NCBI RefSeq assembly: GCF_024298765.1
Contig: NZ_CP101213.1
Source: Escherichia coli
Lineage (GTDB): Bacteria > Pseudomonadota > Gammaproteobacteria > Enterobacterales > Enterobacteriaceae
Length of the DNA: 62,297 nt
Reading direction: 5' to 3' (one strand)
Numbering within the stretch: position 1 is the first letter of the stretch; the number at the start of each line of letters is the position of its first letter. Below, piece by piece: positions 1-6,000 of the stretch. The position numbers were made by a program.

Positions 1-3000
1 GTGCAGCTTGCTGTGATTAGCAAACGTCACTGGTCTGAACTATCACCGGAAGAGCAGGTCCGTTTCTGGCAGGACTACGAAGCGGGAATTGAAAGCTCAT
101 TCCTGGTCCCCCAGGAAAACAAAGGCGGAACAACAAAACGTCGCCGGGGTGAACATTCCACTAAGCCAAAGTGTGAGAATCCAGCCTGGTTCCGTCCCGA
201 CAGCTATAAGGCGCTGGGCGGACAGTTGGGCCACGCTTACAATCGTCTCGTTAAAAAAGACCCGGTAACTGGTCAGTACACACTCAGAATGCACATGTCG
301 TTGCATCCATTTTATGTGCTGAAACGTCAGAGTGTCGGTCGCAAATATAAGTTCCGACCGGAAAAACAGCGGCTGCTCGACGCAATATGGGTTGTACTTG
401 TGAGTTTTTGTGATCGTGGATTGCACACTGTCGGCATGTCTGTCTCCCGCCTGGCAGAAGAAATAAGTCCAAAAGACAGTAAGGGAAACGTTATTCCTGA
501 AACCGCAGTCACAGTATCGCGCCTTTCCCGTCTGCTGGCAGAGCAGGTTTGCTTTGGCACGTTGGGAACGTCAGAAAAGACGATATGGGATCGTGAATCC
601 CGCCAGCGACTGCCGAAATACGTCTGGATCACCGAAACTGGCTGGAAAATGCTGGGAGTTGATCTGGTGAAACTTCAGGAACAGCAACGTAAACGCCTTG
701 CAGAAAGTGAAATCCGTCTGCAACTGATTAAAGAAGGCGTTATCCGCGAGGGCGAGGAAATCTCTGTTCACTCGGCTCGTAAACGCTGGTATGCGCAGCG
801 TTCTCTCGATGCCATCAAGTTCCGACGAGAGAAAGCAGCAAAGCGCAAACGTGCCAATCGCCTTGCAAAACTGCCGTATGATGAACAGCGAAACGAAATT
901 GCACGGTTTATTCTGAAACGTATGCCGCCGGACGAAGCGTACTGGTGCACTAAAGAAAGATTAGAGCAACTGGTAGCCAGGGATCTACGTCAGCTTGAAC
1001 TGGCCCTGACAGCTTCGCCACCCCACTAGTTTAGCTGCCTGATACAATCGGCACTCTCTTCAGCCCCTTCGGGGCTTTTCGTGTTGCCTGCATTTCATGA
1101 AATTCCTCATTTTTGACGACCGTTTTTCATTTTGTCCCGCTCTGACAGTTTTTTGATGGCCACAATCGGGTATCGGAGCTAAACCGCCTTCGGTTATTAA
1201 CAAAAACCCGCAAACGAATAACTTCAGAAAGCAGCAAACGTAGAAGATCAAACCCGCAATATATTCTTAACCCCTGTTCTTTAATCCCCTGCGTTGCTTC
1301 GCCGCAGGGAAAATATTTATCTTTGAAACAACTGTGGATAATTACAAAAATGCCTTCGCTTGCAGCGGCTAACGCCGCGCCGCTCAGAATATAAAAGTAC
1401 CTCCCACCGCTTCGCGGCGGGCATATGGACTTCTGCCTAATGAAAAACAAAGCCCCTCCAACCCTCCTACAAAAAAACGCTGCAAATACTCAGCCACAGC
1501 GCCCAACCCATCACTGAAAAGCGCCGCCGCCCCCGCCCGAAGGGCGGGAACAACATCGCTTTCAATAATGGATGTTGTAACTAAGAAATTACATGGCTGT
1601 CAGTCTTCTGGCTGGAAGTACCAAGTACACGCTCGTAAGCGGTCCTGGCGGCCCGCTAACGCGGAGATACGCCCCGACTGCGGGTAAACCCTTGTCGGGA
1701 CCACTCCGACCGCGCACAAAAGCTATTTCATGGCTGAAAGCGGGTATGGCTTAGCAGGATGGGGATAGGTAAGGTGAAACCTATCAATCAGTACCGGCTT
1801 ACGCCGGGCTTCGGCGGTTTTACTCCAGTATCATATGTAACAACGGAGTGCCGCCTTCCATGCCGCTGGCGCGGCATCAAAAAAGAAAGCCCCCCAATGA
1901 CGGGGGAAATAGCGTTTTGATCAAAATAATAATGCTAGTGTGCTTCTTGCGTGCCATTCCAGGCACAAACTAAATTTAACGTTTCGTTAACTACAAAGAA
2001 ATCCGATGAGTTAATCACTTGCGAAATAAAAATCATATAGTAAATTACTATATGATTTTGCGTTGTTTCGGAGAATTAAAAAATGCCTTTGATTGAATAC
2101 ATCAACAAGTTCTATCGGGGGAATCAGGCATCGTTCGCCAGGCTGACCGGAGTTCAACCTGCGCAGGTAACACAGTGGATCAACAAAGGATTCATCGTGG
2201 TGAATCACACACTGTATAGTCCACGCCGAAAGCTGGGAATTTAATTCCTGGTCAATATTTGACATCCTCCACGCCCTGAAGGACGGGGATATAAGGCGCA
2301 CTGTATCCTGTTGTCTGGCAGAAAAAAGAAAGCCCCGTAGTTAATTTTTCATTAACCCACGAGGCGATCCCAATACTTCAACAACACCAGGATAGACTTT
2401 TACCGCCCTTTACGCAATACCATGTATTTTCAAGTTTCTGGTCGATATATAATGTTGTTGGCGCTTGAGGCTTTCTGCCTCATGGCGAAAAGGTGGTTTG
2501 TATCTTGTTGTGCGGCAGAAAGAAGAAAGCCCCGTAGTTAATTTTTCATTAACCCACGAGGCGATCCCAATGCTTGAACAACATCAGGATAGCCTCTTAC
2601 CGCGCGTTACGCAAGGAGAAGAAGGCCATGAAACAGCCGAAAAACGCCCTGACCTGGTGTTTATTAATCGTGTGCTGCACATTGTTAATATTCACGTATC
2701 TGACCCGGAATCGTTTGTGCGAGGTCCGGCTGAAAGACGGAGACAGGGAGGTTACGGCAAGTCTGGCTTACGAATCCAACGGTAAGTAGCAACCCGGAGG
2801 CGGGCGAAAGCCCGCCTTTTTGGGGATGATGTGGTTCTGGCATTAAGCGCCTTTACAAAGGGGGTATTCTGTACGGATACCCCCTTTTTCCATGTATTTT
2901 CAGGATATTAACTGGTGAATATGGTATAATTAGTCAATATGACAGCAATTATTGAGGCGAGTATGCAGCCCAAAAAAACACCCGTGATTGTGGTCAAAAA

Positions 3001-6000
3001 ACGCCGCGTTCTGGTCATGCCAGAAAATCCTGTGGTGAATGAAAAGCCGCAGGAAGTACAAAAATCAGCAGTTAATGAAAACAAGAAAGTACAGAAGAAA
3101 GATGCTGTAGCAGAGAAAACACGTAAAAAGCAGCCTCAGCCCTGGTATTTGAAAAAACAAATCACTTTTCCCCCAAAATATCCGAAAGAATATTTTGAAA
3201 AGTGTTTCAATAAAGTTCGTGCTGTTTTTCCTGAACTATGGACAGACGAAAAAAAGAACTTGCCCCTGAAAAGCGGGATTCTCCAGGACGTTGAGAAATA
3301 CCTGGCGGATAACCCGGATGTGGATCTGACGATTGAAGAGTGGAATTGTGCGGTTCAGGTGATGACGTTCCGGTGGCAATATCTTCAGAATTGTACTGTA
3401 CCAGGCGCAACACGTTACGACCTTTACGGGAAACCTGCTGGTACAGTAAAAAAAGCACACGCAACTTATGCGCAACTGGTTCTCGATGCCCGTAAGAAAG
3501 CCAGCGAGAAGAAACAATTAAAACGTAAGGGATAAAGCCCCGAAGGGCTTTATCATTTCAGCCTGGCTGACTGTAGAATCCAGTGATTTTTTCCGTTTTC
3601 GTCCAGGCCGTGTTCGTAAGCTGCAAGAGCCGCTTTCATTATTGCTGTTTTTGTCTGGCCTGTTCGCAGTGCTTCCCGTTCCAGAATATCTTCGTAAACG
3701 TCCCCAAGCCGGACATTGGTCACTTTAGTTGCTCCCGATTTTTTGCGGGTAGCTTCATTGATGAATCGGGCTGTGTCTGCATTGGTTTGTTCTGTTTTTT
3801 GTCCTGGTATTACCGGAGTTTTCAAGTCAAGAGCCATTATATCACCTTTCGTGTGTTACATTAGCTTTACTGTGTAAAGCTAATGATGTAAAGCGATCGT
3901 ATTACATCCATTAGGGATTGATGCCTAACTCTTGCGCCAAAAGCTCTATTTGTGCTTTAGCTGTAGAAAGGCTGGATGCGCGACGTACATCATGAACGCC
4001 AGCGCCTTCATTACAGGCCGCTTCAAAAATATCTAAATCTGAAATACGTGTACGAAGTGGCTGTATCCACACCGGGTTCTCCCGGAGTAACTTGTCGAGA
4101 TCAATCGCTGCTTTTCTGTGGCGTGGTTTTGTCGTGTTAATTCTCGTGAAAAGTACCCAGGGTTGCAGGTCTGGATTGATCTGTTGAGCTGTGCGAACTT
4201 TTTCTGTTACATGAGTCAGCGTTTCTGCTTCGAAATCTGAAGACGGCTTAACGAGAGTAAGCAGAGTGTCAGCTACAGTTAAGGCGCTGCGAAATTCCTT
4301 GCTGTCATGACCTGGACAGTCAATGATCAGCACTTCACATATTTTTTTCAGGCGCTTAATGACTTCTGATACATCGCCATACTCTTCATAAACAGGAACC
4401 GGTAATAAGCCATTCTGCTTTCTTTTTTCGTTCCAGCTAAGAATATCATTGTTTTTATCGGTCTTCAGAATGATGACCGTTCGTGAATTATTTACCAGAT
4501 AAGAAGCCAGGTTTGTTGCTGTGGTGCTTTTTCCTACACCGCCTTTATCTGATGCGACAAGTAATGCTCTCCCCATAGAAACCTCGGATATACAGTGTAA
4601 AGGTTTATTTGTCTTTACATTGTATTCATTATAGTTACGTTGTAAAGATGTTTGTGTCTTTACAATGTAATTGCTTTTGTGCTTTACATTGTGTGTATGT
4701 TACAGGGTAACTTTTCAGGATGCGATTTTGCCTGGTGTGTTGTTGCGCCCGTAGCTCGCTGACGCTCACACGCGCAGTACAGCGCCCCGCCCTGCTGCAA
4801 TGCACCAGGACGGCGTAAACTCGCTGGCGCTCGCGCTAACTGCGGCATTCTGCGGCGCAAATCAGCATTATCATGGCCTGTTGGTCTGTCCTGGCTTTGC
4901 AGGGCGAAGGGATGGCCCTGTGCATCCTGGTATGTTCGTCAGCGGCTGCGCCGCGCTTCGGGGCGATGTGGCCCCGCTGCTCCCTGGTATTTTCTTTCGC
5001 CCCTTCTATCCGCTGGCGCGGATTAAAAAATGAGCAAACCATCAAATAACTTGCTGTTTTCAGGCAATAAATCTTGATAATACATCTAAATAGATGTATT
5101 ATTGTTTCATCGAAAGGGGATTGGCTCCTTTCCTTCTTAAGTCCAAACGGACAGGAGATTTAAAATGAAAACATTGACTTTTAATAACGGCACTGTTTCT
5201 GTTGGCGATGTGTTTGTATCTTCCTGGGGATATGAGCAAACGAACGTTAATTTCTACCAGGTTATTTCTGTTCATGGCAAAAAAACAGTAACTGTTCAGG
5301 AGATTCGCGCTTCAGTTCATCGGACTCATTCAATGAGCGGATATAAGACTCCATTACTTAATGATTTCTGTGGTGAGCCATTAAAACGGCGAGTGCGTGA
5401 TTATTACAGTTCGCCAGCAATTGAAATTGAGGAATTCGAAACAGCATATAAAGGATCACCGGAAGAAAAACACGAGTTCACATCATACTACTAAGAAAAT
5501 AGTTGCAGGGGGTATCCCCTGCAACCATGTTAAAAATGTTAATAGTAGTATTTACCCAGGGGGTTTTAGTATGAATGATGGGGTAAAACTCCGTCCTTCA
5601 GGGCGTGGAGAATGCCGGGCTAATGCAGCAATGTAATGTTGCGCCCGTAGCTCGCTGACGCTCACACACGCAGTACAGCGCCGCGCTTCGGGGCGATGTG
5701 GCCCCGCTGTTCCCTGGTATTTCCTTTCGCCCCTTCTATCCGCTGACGCGGATTAAGAAACGAGCAAATCATCAAGTAAATTGCTGTTTTCAGGAAATAA
5801 ATCTTGATAATACATCTAAATAGATGTATTATTGTTTCATCGAAAGGGGATTGGCTCCTTTCCTTCTTAAGTCCAAACGGACAGGAGATTTAAAATGAAT
5901 ATCCAGGAAGCATTAAACGTTTTTGGATTATCCGGCGAATTAACTGAAAAAGATATCAAAGCAGCATACAGAAAAGCCGCTTTAAAATATCATCCAGATC

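What the first reader, a model, noticed from the sequence alone, without database searches (positions are those of the whole stretch)
2939..3535. FinO/ProQ-domain RNA chaperone encoded next to the replicon
The core matches ProQ/FinO (conserved ...PGATRYDLYGKPAG block) and is flanked by Lys-rich tails. It sits between the replicon/hok locus and the partition genes. In related plasmids such proteins bind antisense RNAs that control replication or toxin loci, so it may tune the repA antisense RNA or the Sok-like RNA here.
Basis: partly seen in the sequence, partly recalled or inferred. Interest (0 to 1): 0.4.

Follow-up and report, generated by a model that had tools for sequence, protein, structure and literature searches.

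The report
PcnR, known IncI2 copy-number repressor
The ORF is real and encodes a FinO/ProQ-type RNA-binding protein, but it is identical to PcnR, the already characterised protein that keeps mcr-1-carrying IncI2 plasmids at about one copy per cell, so the finding is correct but ordinary.

Summary
The ORF at 2939-3535 (+) exists and is a clear ProQ/FinO-domain protein (Pfam PF04352, E 4e-17). An AlphaFold model matches only FinO-domain structures in the PDB. The window is a complete ~62-kb IncI2 plasmid carrying mcr-1.

The protein is 198/198 identical to the only ProQ/FinO protein of pHNSHP45. That protein is PcnR (Yang et al., NAR 2021). Deleting it raises copy number about 10-fold.

[quoted passage not shown] In the published EMSA it did not bind the replicon's antisense RNA, and it repressed without that RNA.

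All published parts are present here. SL1 lies at 62249-62281, repR at 62261-62297 joined to 1-20, and the antisense-RNA hairpin at 62146-62189 (-). SL1 is invariant across nine IncI2 leader variants, while the antisense-RNA region is polymorphic.

The antisense-RNA mechanism is contradicted by published work on the identical protein, and the Sok idea is untested.

Two small additions: the true start is probably ATG 2963 (190 aa), and PcnR lacks the conserved Arg of the hairpin-binding N-cap helix. Already known; low interest.

The parts
2939..3535 (+). pcnR coding sequence as annotated in RefSeq (198 aa, WP_000125165.1). The probable true start is ATG 2963 (190 aa).
   Evidence: ORF. 198/198 identical to pHNSHP45 6146-6742. 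Start-codon argument rests on the sequence, homologue N-termini and the paper's numbering.
2922..2930 (+). Candidate extended -10 promoter element TGgTATAAT for pcnR. No good -35 is present.
   Evidence: Read directly. The consensus scan did not report it because it needs a -35 hexamer. This is an inference.
2954..2957 (+). Shine-Dalgarno GAGG, 5 nt upstream of ATG 2963.
   Evidence: Read directly.
3197..3517 (+). Region encoding the FinO/ProQ domain (aa 87-193). It includes the 3'-nucleotide pocket residues G113, Y148 and R159 and the N-cap residue T131.
   Evidence: Pfam envelope. Conservation in an 83-sequence alignment. AlphaFold pLDDT >90 over aa 81-198. Foldseek hits RocC, FinO, Lpp1663 and NMB1681.
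3531..3554 (.). GC-rich hairpin GATAAAGCCC-loop-GGGCTTTATC overlapping the pcnR stop codon. It is shared with the convergent RHH gene and is a likely bidirectional terminator.
   Evidence: Terminator-like site (reported on the - strand). On the + strand the T tail is weak.
62249..62281 (+). SL1, the hairpin in the repR leader mRNA that holds the repR AUG in its loop. This is the published PcnR binding site.
   Evidence: Fold (second sequence) puts AUGAGAA in the loop and the GGAG Shine-Dalgarno next to the stem. Identical to pHNSHP45. Invariant in 9 IncI2 leader variants. Unique in the window. Binding and genetics come from PMC8053102.
62261..62297 (+). repR leader ORF, first 37 nt. It continues across the circular junction to window 1-20 and overlaps the repA GTG at position 1.
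   Evidence: Sequence. Translational coupling of RepA to RepR is reported in PMC8053102.
1..1029 (+). repA, the replication initiator whose translation PcnR represses.
   Evidence: NCBIfam NF040977 RepA_IncFII_LM, 312 bits. Annotated repA in identical plasmids.
62137..62243 (-). Antisense RNA of the repA leader (approximate ends). It has a long terminator hairpin at 62146-62189 followed by UUUUCUUU. Its promoter has -35 TTGATA (62278 to 62273) and -10 TAAACT (62255 to 62250). The paper's TSS (-68) maps to about 62230.
   Evidence: Folds (third and fourth sequences, z -2.9 and -3.6). Promoter read and matched to the CA-to-TT -35 mutation described. The region is polymorphic among IncI2 plasmids.

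Best explanation
The gene is pcnR, the plasmid copy-number repressor of IncI2 plasmids. Its product has three parts: a disordered, basic N-terminal region, a FinO/ProQ RNA-binding domain, and a basic C-terminal helix.

Proposed mechanism:
1. PcnR binds the first stem-loop (SL1) of the repA leader transcript. SL1 encloses the start codon of the 18-19-codon leader ORF repR and sequesters its ribosome-binding region.
2. Stabilising SL1 blocks translation of repR.
3. RepA translation is coupled to repR, because the repR frame overlaps the repA GUG. Less replication initiator is therefore made.
4. The plasmid stays at about one copy per cell, which limits the dose and cost of mcr-1.

Status of the steps:
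- Shown here: identity of the protein, its fold and RNA-pocket residues, and the presence and invariance of SL1, repR, the antisense RNA and mcr-1 in this window.
- Shown in the literature for the identical protein: the copy-number phenotype, the dependence on SL1, the EMSA, and independence from the antisense RNA.
- Inferred: that binding works by stabilising SL1 and excluding the 30S subunit.
For: Identity:
- 198/198 aa identical to the sole ProQ/FinO protein of pHNSHP45.
- Window 1-6000 is 100% identical to many IncI2 (MOBP/MPF_T) plasmids, where the ORF is annotated 'ProQ/FINO family protein'.
- The adjacent RHH ORF matches the paper's neighbouring 'CopG family' orf00050.

Domain:
- Pfam 62.5 bits.
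- AlphaFold pLDDT >90 over aa 81-198.
- The top 26 Foldseek PDB hits are all FinO-domain proteins, with TM up to 0.84 normalised to RocC.
- K111, G113, Y148 and R159 are conserved in at least 90% of 83 homologues. Three of these (G113, Y148, R159) correspond to RocC's 3'-nucleotide pocket residues G52, Y87 and R97.

Target:
- SL1 is present, unique in the window and identical to pHNSHP45.
- It is invariant in nine leader variants whose antisense region differs.
- Distribution is similar: 517 plasmids hold this leader and 531 encode PcnR at 80% identity or more.

Function (PMC8053102):
- Deletion gives about 10-fold higher copy number and a large mcr-1-dependent fitness cost.
- A repA-lacZ fusion is repressed by PcnR.
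- Repression is lost with the stem mutation GAAA-to-CTCT and kept with the loop mutation.
- Repression persists without the antisense RNA.
- A 47-nt SL1 RNA shifts in EMSA and the antisense RNA does not.
- The review PMC9977716 gives the same account.
Against: - The mechanism rests on one study with reporter fusions and one EMSA. I found no in vivo crosslinking or toeprinting in the held library.
- The structural model for FinO domains has the pocket gripping a terminal 3'-OH nucleotide next to a hairpin (RocC/RocR). SL1 is internal to the mRNA in vivo. The short EMSA RNA artificially offers a hairpin plus a free 3' tail.
- The closest characterised relative, FopA (34% identity), works through the antisense RNA.
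- The IncI2 antisense RNA has the canonical FinO-type ligand shape, a long terminator hairpin followed by UUUU.
- The antisense promoter mutation used in the paper also alters SL1 (positions +16/+17), as the authors note.
- SL1 invariance gives no covariation, so it neither proves nor disproves the structure.
Confidence: 0.8

Rival explanations
1. PcnR works like FopA or FinO. It binds and stabilises the cis-antisense RNA of the repA leader and speeds its pairing with the mRNA, either as the main route or in addition to SL1 binding.
For: - FopA is the nearest characterised homologue. It is 34% identical over 195 aa and has the same architecture. It is also encoded next to the replicon of an I-complex plasmid.
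- FopA binds Inc and accelerates Inc-repZ pairing.
- PcnR keeps the 3'-nucleotide pocket residues G113, Y148 and R159.
- The antisense RNA ends in a long hairpin plus UUUU, the canonical FinO-domain ligand.
Against: - The published EMSA shows no binding of PcnR to the antisense RNA.
- PcnR still represses repA-lacZ in the antisense-promoter mutant.
- The antisense-RNA region is polymorphic among plasmids whose PcnR is identical, whereas SL1 is invariant.
- PcnR lacks the conserved Arg of the hairpin-binding N-cap helix (N136; R or K in 52 of 83 homologues). The FopA-like YafB homologue (L003) lacks it too, so this point is weak.
Confidence: 0.12
2. PcnR tunes the neighbouring hok/sok toxin-antitoxin locus by binding Sok RNA or the folded hok mRNA. 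This would be its main role or a second role.
For: - hok/sok lies about 150 nt upstream of pcnR (Rfam RF01794 at 2459-2630; Hok Pfam hit).
- From general knowledge, FinO-domain proteins favour structured antisense RNAs, and chromosomal ProQ binds several type I antitoxin RNAs.
Against: - There is no experimental or comparative evidence for it.
- The fitness defect of the deletion is fully explained by copy number and mcr-1 dose. Deleting mcr-1 rescues growth.
- No SL1-like sequence occurs in the hok/sok region.
- Two terminator-like hairpins separate hok from pcnR (read), which suggests independent transcription.
- In pHNSHP45 an IS66-family element sits between repA and hok without any reported effect.
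Confidence: 0.05
3. It is a FinO-like fertility inhibitor whose main job is to repress conjugative transfer.
For: - It has a FinO-domain fold.
- Deletion raised transfer frequency about 8-fold.
Against: - The effect is far smaller than the ~1000-fold reported for FinO, and a 10-fold higher plasmid copy number could explain it.
- finO does not complement the pcnR deletion.
- The NCBIfam FinO model scores 29 bits against a cutoff of 136.
- No FinP-type RNA was found in the window.
- IncI2 transfer genes are of the MPF_T/MOBP type, not F-type.
Confidence: 0.03

Closest known systems
PcnR of IncI2 plasmid pHNSHP45 (Yang et al., Nucleic Acids Res 2021, PMC8053102)
   Same: The protein is identical (198/198 aa). 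It has the same gene neighbours (hok upstream, convergent RHH/CopG-like gene and ParA-type ATPase downstream), the same IncI2 replicon with the repR leader, an identical SL1, and mcr-1 on the same plasmid.
   Different: - This plasmid lacks the IS66-family insertion between repA and hok.
- It lacks ISApl1 upstream of mcr-1.
- Its antisense-RNA region is a different allele: 5 substitutions and two short indels, with the leader 93% identical.
FopA (YafB) of IncI1 plasmid pCol1B9 (Gerovac et al., RNA 2020, PMC7491321)
   Same: - It is a plasmid-encoded FinO-domain protein with a basic N-terminal region.
- It is encoded near the replicon.
- It represses synthesis of an IncFII-family Rep protein, and so lowers copy number and plasmid cost.
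- It is 34% identical over 195 aa to an IncI-gamma/K YafB.
   Different: - FopA binds the antisense RNA Inc and accelerates Inc-repZ pairing, which disrupts an activating pseudoknot.
- PcnR is reported not to bind the antisense RNA and to act on an mRNA hairpin.
- No such pseudoknot was found in IncI2.
FinO of IncF plasmids
   Same: It has the FinO-domain fold (1dvo is among the Foldseek hits), is plasmid-encoded, and lowers plasmid cost by post-transcriptional repression.
   Different: - FinO targets FinP/traJ and so controls conjugation, not replication.
- finO does not complement the pcnR deletion.
- The NCBIfam FinO model is far below its cutoff.
- No FinP was found in the window.
Chromosomal ProQ (E. 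coli/Salmonella) and RocC (Legionella)
   Same: The best sequence and structure matches are to their FinO domains (5nb9 E 1.5e-9; 7rgt/7rgu TM 0.84). The pocket residues Gly, Tyr and Arg are conserved.
   Different: - PcnR has no ProQ C-terminal domain. The NCBIfam ProQ model scores 50 bits against a cutoff of 127.
- PcnR has N136, I132 and E134 where RocC has the RNA-contacting R75, K71 and K73.
- It has a single known plasmid target rather than a global regulon.
Rom/Rop of ColE1
   Same: It is a plasmid-encoded RNA-binding protein that lowers copy number (comparison made in PMC8053102).
   Different: Rom is a four-helix bundle that stabilises an RNA I-RNA II kissing complex. PcnR is a FinO-domain protein that acts on an mRNA hairpin to block translation.

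Membership tests
ProQ/FinO domain family (Pfam PF04352) | Sequence match to the family HMM above the curated cutoff | tested here: met
   62.5 bits against a cutoff of 27, E 4.4e-17, aa 87-193 covering profile positions 5-107 of 109.
ProQ/FinO domain family (Pfam PF04352) | FinO-domain three-dimensional fold | tested here: met
   AlphaFold model with pLDDT >90 over aa 81-198. The top 26 Foldseek PDB hits are all FinO-domain proteins: RocC (TM 0.84, rmsd 2.4 A), FinO 1dvo, Lpp1663 6s10 and NMB1681 3mw6.
ProQ/FinO domain family (Pfam PF04352) | Conserved 3'-nucleotide-binding pocket (beta-turn Gly, buried Tyr, Arg; RocC G52/Y87/R97) | tested here: met
   G113, Y148 and R159 align to these residues. 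They are conserved in 81, 81 and 79 of the homologues in the 83-sequence alignment. Residue roles are from PMC9674577.
ProQ/FinO domain family (Pfam PF04352) | N-cap helix with Ser/Thr cap and a conserved basic residue (RocC S70 and R75, about 80% Arg in the family) | tested here: inconclusive
   The cap is present (T131; S or T in 70 of 83). The Arg position is N136 in PcnR (R in 47 and K in 5 of 83), and the K71/K73 equivalents are I132/E134. The FopA-like YafB homologue (L003) also lacks this Arg.
ProQ/FinO domain family (Pfam PF04352) | Binds structured RNA | not testable with these tools
   Published EMSA: PcnR shifts a 47-nt SL1 RNA (PMC8053102).
PcnR (IncI2 plasmid copy-number repressor) | Sequence identity to the characterised PcnR of pHNSHP45 | tested here: met
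   198/198 aa identical, same RefSeq protein WP_000125165.1.
PcnR (IncI2 plasmid copy-number repressor) | Resides on an IncI2 replicon with the repR leader ORF coupled to repA | tested here: met
   Identical plasmids are typed IncI2/MOBP/MPF_T. repR at 62261-62297 joined to 1-20 overlaps the repA GTG.
PcnR (IncI2 plasmid copy-number repressor) | Target hairpin SL1 enclosing the repR start codon | tested here: met
   62249-62281 is identical to pHNSHP45. It folds with the AUG in the loop and is invariant in 9 variants.
PcnR (IncI2 plasmid copy-number repressor) | Deletion raises copy number; repression independent of the antisense RNA | not testable with these tools
   Shown for the identical protein on pHNSHP45, not for this plasmid.
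FopA (YafB) clade of I-complex plasmids | Close sequence relationship to FopA/YafB | tested here: inconclusive
   34% identity over 195 aa, E 1e-32, to the YafB of an IncI-gamma/K plasmid. This makes it a homologue in a neighbouring clade, not an orthologue. The review calls it 'phylogenetically close'.
FopA (YafB) clade of I-complex plasmids | Binds the replicon's antisense RNA and promotes its pairing | not testable with these tools
   The published EMSA for PcnR with the antisense RNA was negative.
FinO (IncF fertility inhibition) | Match to the FinO subfamily model | tested here: not met
   NF010317 scores 29.2 bits against a cutoff of 136.
FinO (IncF fertility inhibition) | Partner FinP/traJ locus on the same plasmid | tested here: not met
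   A Rfam gathering-threshold scan of the whole window found only sok. The transfer system is MPF_T, not F-type.
ProQ (chromosomal global RNA chaperone) | Match to the ProQ equivalog and presence of the ProQ C-terminal domain | tested here: not met
   NF003434 scores 50.2 bits against a cutoff of 127. Pfam reports only PF04352 and no C-terminal ProQ domain.

The most novel reading that the evidence does not exclude
PcnR may have RNA ligands beyond SL1 that the single published study did not look for. In vivo it could also engage the antisense RNA of the repA leader through its native hairpin-UUUU 3' end, as its relative FopA does. It could also bind Sok/hok or other plasmid transcripts. The SL1 effect would then be only part of a wider plasmid post-transcriptional circuit. 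A related open point is how a FinO domain with an intact 3'-end pocket, but without the conserved N-cap Arg (N136), recognises an internal mRNA hairpin.
Probability: 0.25. Interest if true: 0.35.

Novelty: already known. Interest (0 to 1): 0.08.

Why it matters
PcnR matters because it keeps the main mcr-1 vector (IncI2 plasmids) at a single copy. This makes colistin resistance affordable for the host and lets the plasmid persist. That was published in 2021 for a protein identical to this one, so the window adds no new biology. What remains open is mechanistic: how a FinO domain binds an internal mRNA hairpin, and whether the antisense RNA or other plasmid RNAs are also ligands in vivo.

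Tried and rejected
- **Distant homologues by word index.** The search for homologous proteins returned only near-identical sequences. I used the full HMMER scan to build the alignment instead.
- **pHNSHP45 accession.** KP347127 was not found, but the record was available as NZ_KP347127. L002 was not exported to the Python sandbox, so I made the comparisons with protein comparison and DNA alignment.
- **Paper supplements.** The primer tables and figures S4-S9 of the PcnR paper are not held. I could not read the exact 47-nt EMSA RNA or the cloned start codon. My own 47-nt guess, which included upstream bases, folded differently (first sequence) and was not used.
- **Covariation support for SL1.** This was impossible because SL1 is invariant in all nine leader variants.
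- **Other SL1-like sites.** I searched the plasmid with up to 3 mismatches for possible extra PcnR targets and found none.
- **Promoter scan.** The consensus scan found no pcnR promoter. The extended -10 element is my own reading of the sequence.
- **Known RNA families.** Rfam has no model that hit the IncI2 antisense RNA or leader.
- **Rejected readings.** The FinO-type fertility inhibitor and ProQ orthologue readings failed on subfamily model scores, partner loci and published complementation data.

Full report
**1. Observation**

The ORF exists as described. It runs from ATG 2939 to TAA 3535 on the + strand and encodes 198 aa. The block PGATRYDLYGKPAG lies at residues 155-168.

The ORF is far beyond chance:
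- Pfam PF04352 (ProQ/FinO) scores 62.5 bits against a gathering cutoff of 27, E 4.4e-17, over residues 87-193.
- A sequence search of the PDB returns only FinO-domain proteins: E. coli ProQ NTD 5nb9 at 1.5e-9 and Legionella RocC at about 8e-5.

The basic tails are real. Residues 9-86 have 20 K+R in 78 residues, and residues 179-198 have 8 K+R in 20.

- repA at 1-1029.
- A hok/sok locus at 2459-2789.
- A convergent ribbon-helix-helix gene at 3553-3837 (-).
- A ParA-type ATPase gene at 3911-4576 (-).

**2. What the window is**

Bases 1-6000 are 100% identical to dozens of ~60-kb plasmids typed IncI2, MOBP, MPF_T, such as pMCR-H9. In these plasmids the ORF is annotated 'ProQ/FINO family protein', WP_000125165.1.

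The window starts at the repA GTG, and its last bases are the repA leader. It is therefore a circular plasmid linearised at repA.

It carries mcr-1 at 18730-20355, 541/541 identical to MCR-1.1 of pHNSHP45. pap2 follows, and there is no ISApl1.

**3. Identity with a characterised protein**

pHNSHP45 is the first described mcr-1 plasmid. It has a single ProQ/FinO gene with the same RefSeq protein accession, and the translation is 198/198 identical to the window ORF.

Yang et al. (NAR 2021, PMC8053102) named this gene pcnR (orf00049). It sits next to a 'CopG family' orf00050, which corresponds to the RHH ORF here. They showed the following:
- Deleting pcnR raises plasmid copy number about 10-fold and imposes a heavy fitness cost that depends on mcr-1.
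- RepA translation is coupled to a leader ORF, repR.
- An antisense RNA of about 108 nt represses repA.
- PcnR represses a repA-lacZ fusion even when the antisense promoter is mutated.
- PcnR did not shift the antisense RNA in EMSA.
- PcnR shifts a 47-nt RNA containing the first stem-loop of the repR mRNA.
- Stem-disrupting mutations abolish PcnR repression, and loop mutations do not.

A 2023 review lists PcnR alongside FinO and FopA and gives the same mechanism (PMC9977716). I found no later interactome study of PcnR in the held library.

**4. The published parts are present in this window**

- **Leader ORF.** repR runs from 62261 to 62297 and continues across the junction to position 20. It overlaps the repA GTG at position 1.
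- **SL1.** It lies at 62249-62281. It folds with AUGAGAA in the loop and the GGAG ribosome-binding site next to the stem (second sequence). It is unique in the plasmid.
- **Antisense promoter.** It can be read on the minus strand: -35 TTGATA at 62278-62273 and -10 TAAACT at 62255-62250. The -35 coincides with the CA-to-TT mutation described in the paper.
- **Antisense RNA.** It contains a long terminator hairpin at 62146-62189 followed by UUUUCUUU (third and fourth sequences).

Compared with pHNSHP45, the leader is 93% identical. All differences fall in the antisense-RNA region, and SL1 and repR are identical.

I aligned nine IncI2 leader variants spanning 94.6-100% identity. Every variable column lies between the antisense hairpin loop and the base just upstream of SL1. 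The loop occurs in at least three alleles. SL1, repR and the repA start are invariant.

This fits one conserved PcnR acting on one conserved hairpin while the antisense determinant diverges. Invariance gives no covariation, so it is not independent proof of the structure.

The leader is found in 517 plasmids and PcnR (80% identity or more) in 531. The two distributions are similar.

**5. Family membership tests**

I built an 83-sequence alignment from a full HMMER scan of 1.84 billion representatives. The scan gave 98 hits at E <= 1e-3 and only 2 at E <= 1e-30, so this is a small clade.

The AlphaFold model has pLDDT >90 for residues 81-198 and a coil-like N-terminal region of about 70 residues.

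The top 26 Foldseek hits in the PDB are all FinO-domain structures:
- RocC, TM 0.84 normalised to the target, rmsd 2.4 A.
- FinO 1dvo.
- Lpp1663 6s10.
- NMB1681 3mw6.

Residues that form the 3'-terminal-nucleotide pocket in the RocC-RNA structure are G52, Y87 and R97 (PMC9674577). They correspond to G113, Y148 and R159. These are conserved in 79-81 of the homologues in the 83-sequence alignment.

The N-cap residue is present (T131). The basic residues of that helix that contact the hairpin in RocC are not conserved:
- K71, K73 and R75 correspond to I132, E134 and N136 in PcnR.
- The R75 position is Arg or Lys in 52 of 83 homologues.
- The FopA-like YafB homologue (L003) also lacks this Arg, so this is a clade trait, not something peculiar to PcnR.

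The subfamily models for FinO (29 bits, cutoff 136) and ProQ (50 bits, cutoff 127) are not met. No FinP-like RNA was detected.

**6. Start codon**

The RefSeq start at ATG 2939 has no Shine-Dalgarno. It lies 8 nt downstream of an extended -10 element, TGgTATAAT at 2922-2930.

ATG 2963 (M9) is preceded by GAGG at 2954-2957 with a 5-nt spacing. Two further points support it:
- The N-termini of many distant homologues align to query residues 8-11.
- The paper numbers the domain 'PcnR79-190'.

The product is therefore probably 190 aa. This is an inference.

**7. Explanations weighed**

*Best (0.8).* This is PcnR. It represses RepA synthesis by binding SL1 and blocking repR translation. Identity, fold and target presence are shown here. 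Phenotype and binding are shown in the literature. The 'stabilise SL1 and exclude the ribosome' step is inferred.

- For it: the nearest characterised relative works that way. The antisense RNA has the canonical hairpin-UUUU ligand shape. The structural model of FinO domains needs a free 3' end, which SL1 lacks in vivo but a short EMSA probe supplies.
- Against it: the published negative EMSA and the persistence of repression in the antisense-promoter mutant.

*Minor rivals.*
- A Sok/hok role (0.05) has no evidence either way beyond proximity.
- A FinO-like fertility-inhibitor role (0.03) is countered by the small 8-fold transfer effect, the lack of complementation by finO and the absence of FinP/traJ.

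**8. Verdict**

The domain, the location and the copy-number control are correct. The antisense-RNA route is contradicted by published work on the identical protein. Sok regulation is untested.
- The feature is already known, and interest is low.
- The only small additions are the probable mis-annotated start, the missing N-cap Arg in the PcnR/FopA clade, and the contrast between an invariant SL1 and a polymorphic antisense-RNA region across IncI2 plasmids.

Noticed in passing
window 4721-5169, 7673-8121 and 5678-5899: A ~450-nt element is repeated at 98-99% identity, and its 222-nt 3' part occurs a third time. Each copy ends exactly at the ATG of a small downstream ORF (5165, 8117, 5895). It is strongly structured as single-stranded DNA on both strands (z -3.9 and -4.1). 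It occurs in 1141 plasmids, 2-4 times per record, including ~33-kb plasmids at about 84% identity, and is mostly unannotated. It may be a leading-region single-strand promoter (Frpo/ssi-like), but that is only an inference.
   Followed up: partly
window 62146-62243 (- strand): The antisense RNA of the IncI2 repA leader is polymorphic among plasmids that share an identical PcnR and SL1. There are at least three alleles of the hairpin loop, plus 6-nt and 2-nt indels in the next hairpin. These may define incompatibility subtypes.
   Followed up: partly
window 2939-2965: The RefSeq start codon of pcnR (2939) is probably 8 codons too far upstream. ATG 2963 has a GAGG Shine-Dalgarno, matches homologue N-termini and matches the 190-aa numbering of the PcnR paper. 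If ATG 2939 were used, the mRNA would be nearly leaderless.
   Followed up: partly
window 18730-21200: An mcr-1.1 (541/541 identical) and pap2 cassette sits directly downstream of the relaxase gene, without the ISApl1 copy present in pHNSHP45.
   Followed up: yes
window 2459-2789: There is a complete hok/sok type I toxin-antitoxin locus (Rfam RF01794, 98 bits; Hok Pfam and NCBIfam hits). hok probably starts at ATG 2628. Two terminator-like hairpins (about 2800-2825 and 2858-2890) separate it from pcnR. pHNSHP45 has an IS66-family insertion between repA and hok that is absent here.
   Followed up: partly
PcnR residues 132-136 (window 3332-3346): PcnR and the FopA-like YafB homologue (L003) lack the basic residues of the N-cap helix (RocC K71, K73, R75). 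PcnR has I132, E134 and N136 at these positions. The Arg is present in most other family members, so hairpin contacts may differ in this plasmid clade.
   Followed up: partly
window 8899-9147 and downstream: A HicA toxin gene (annotated in identical plasmids) marks the HicAB module. A 2025 NAR paper on IncI2 mcr-1 plasmids (PMC11878559) reports that this module promotes their transmission. I did not examine it.
   Followed up: no
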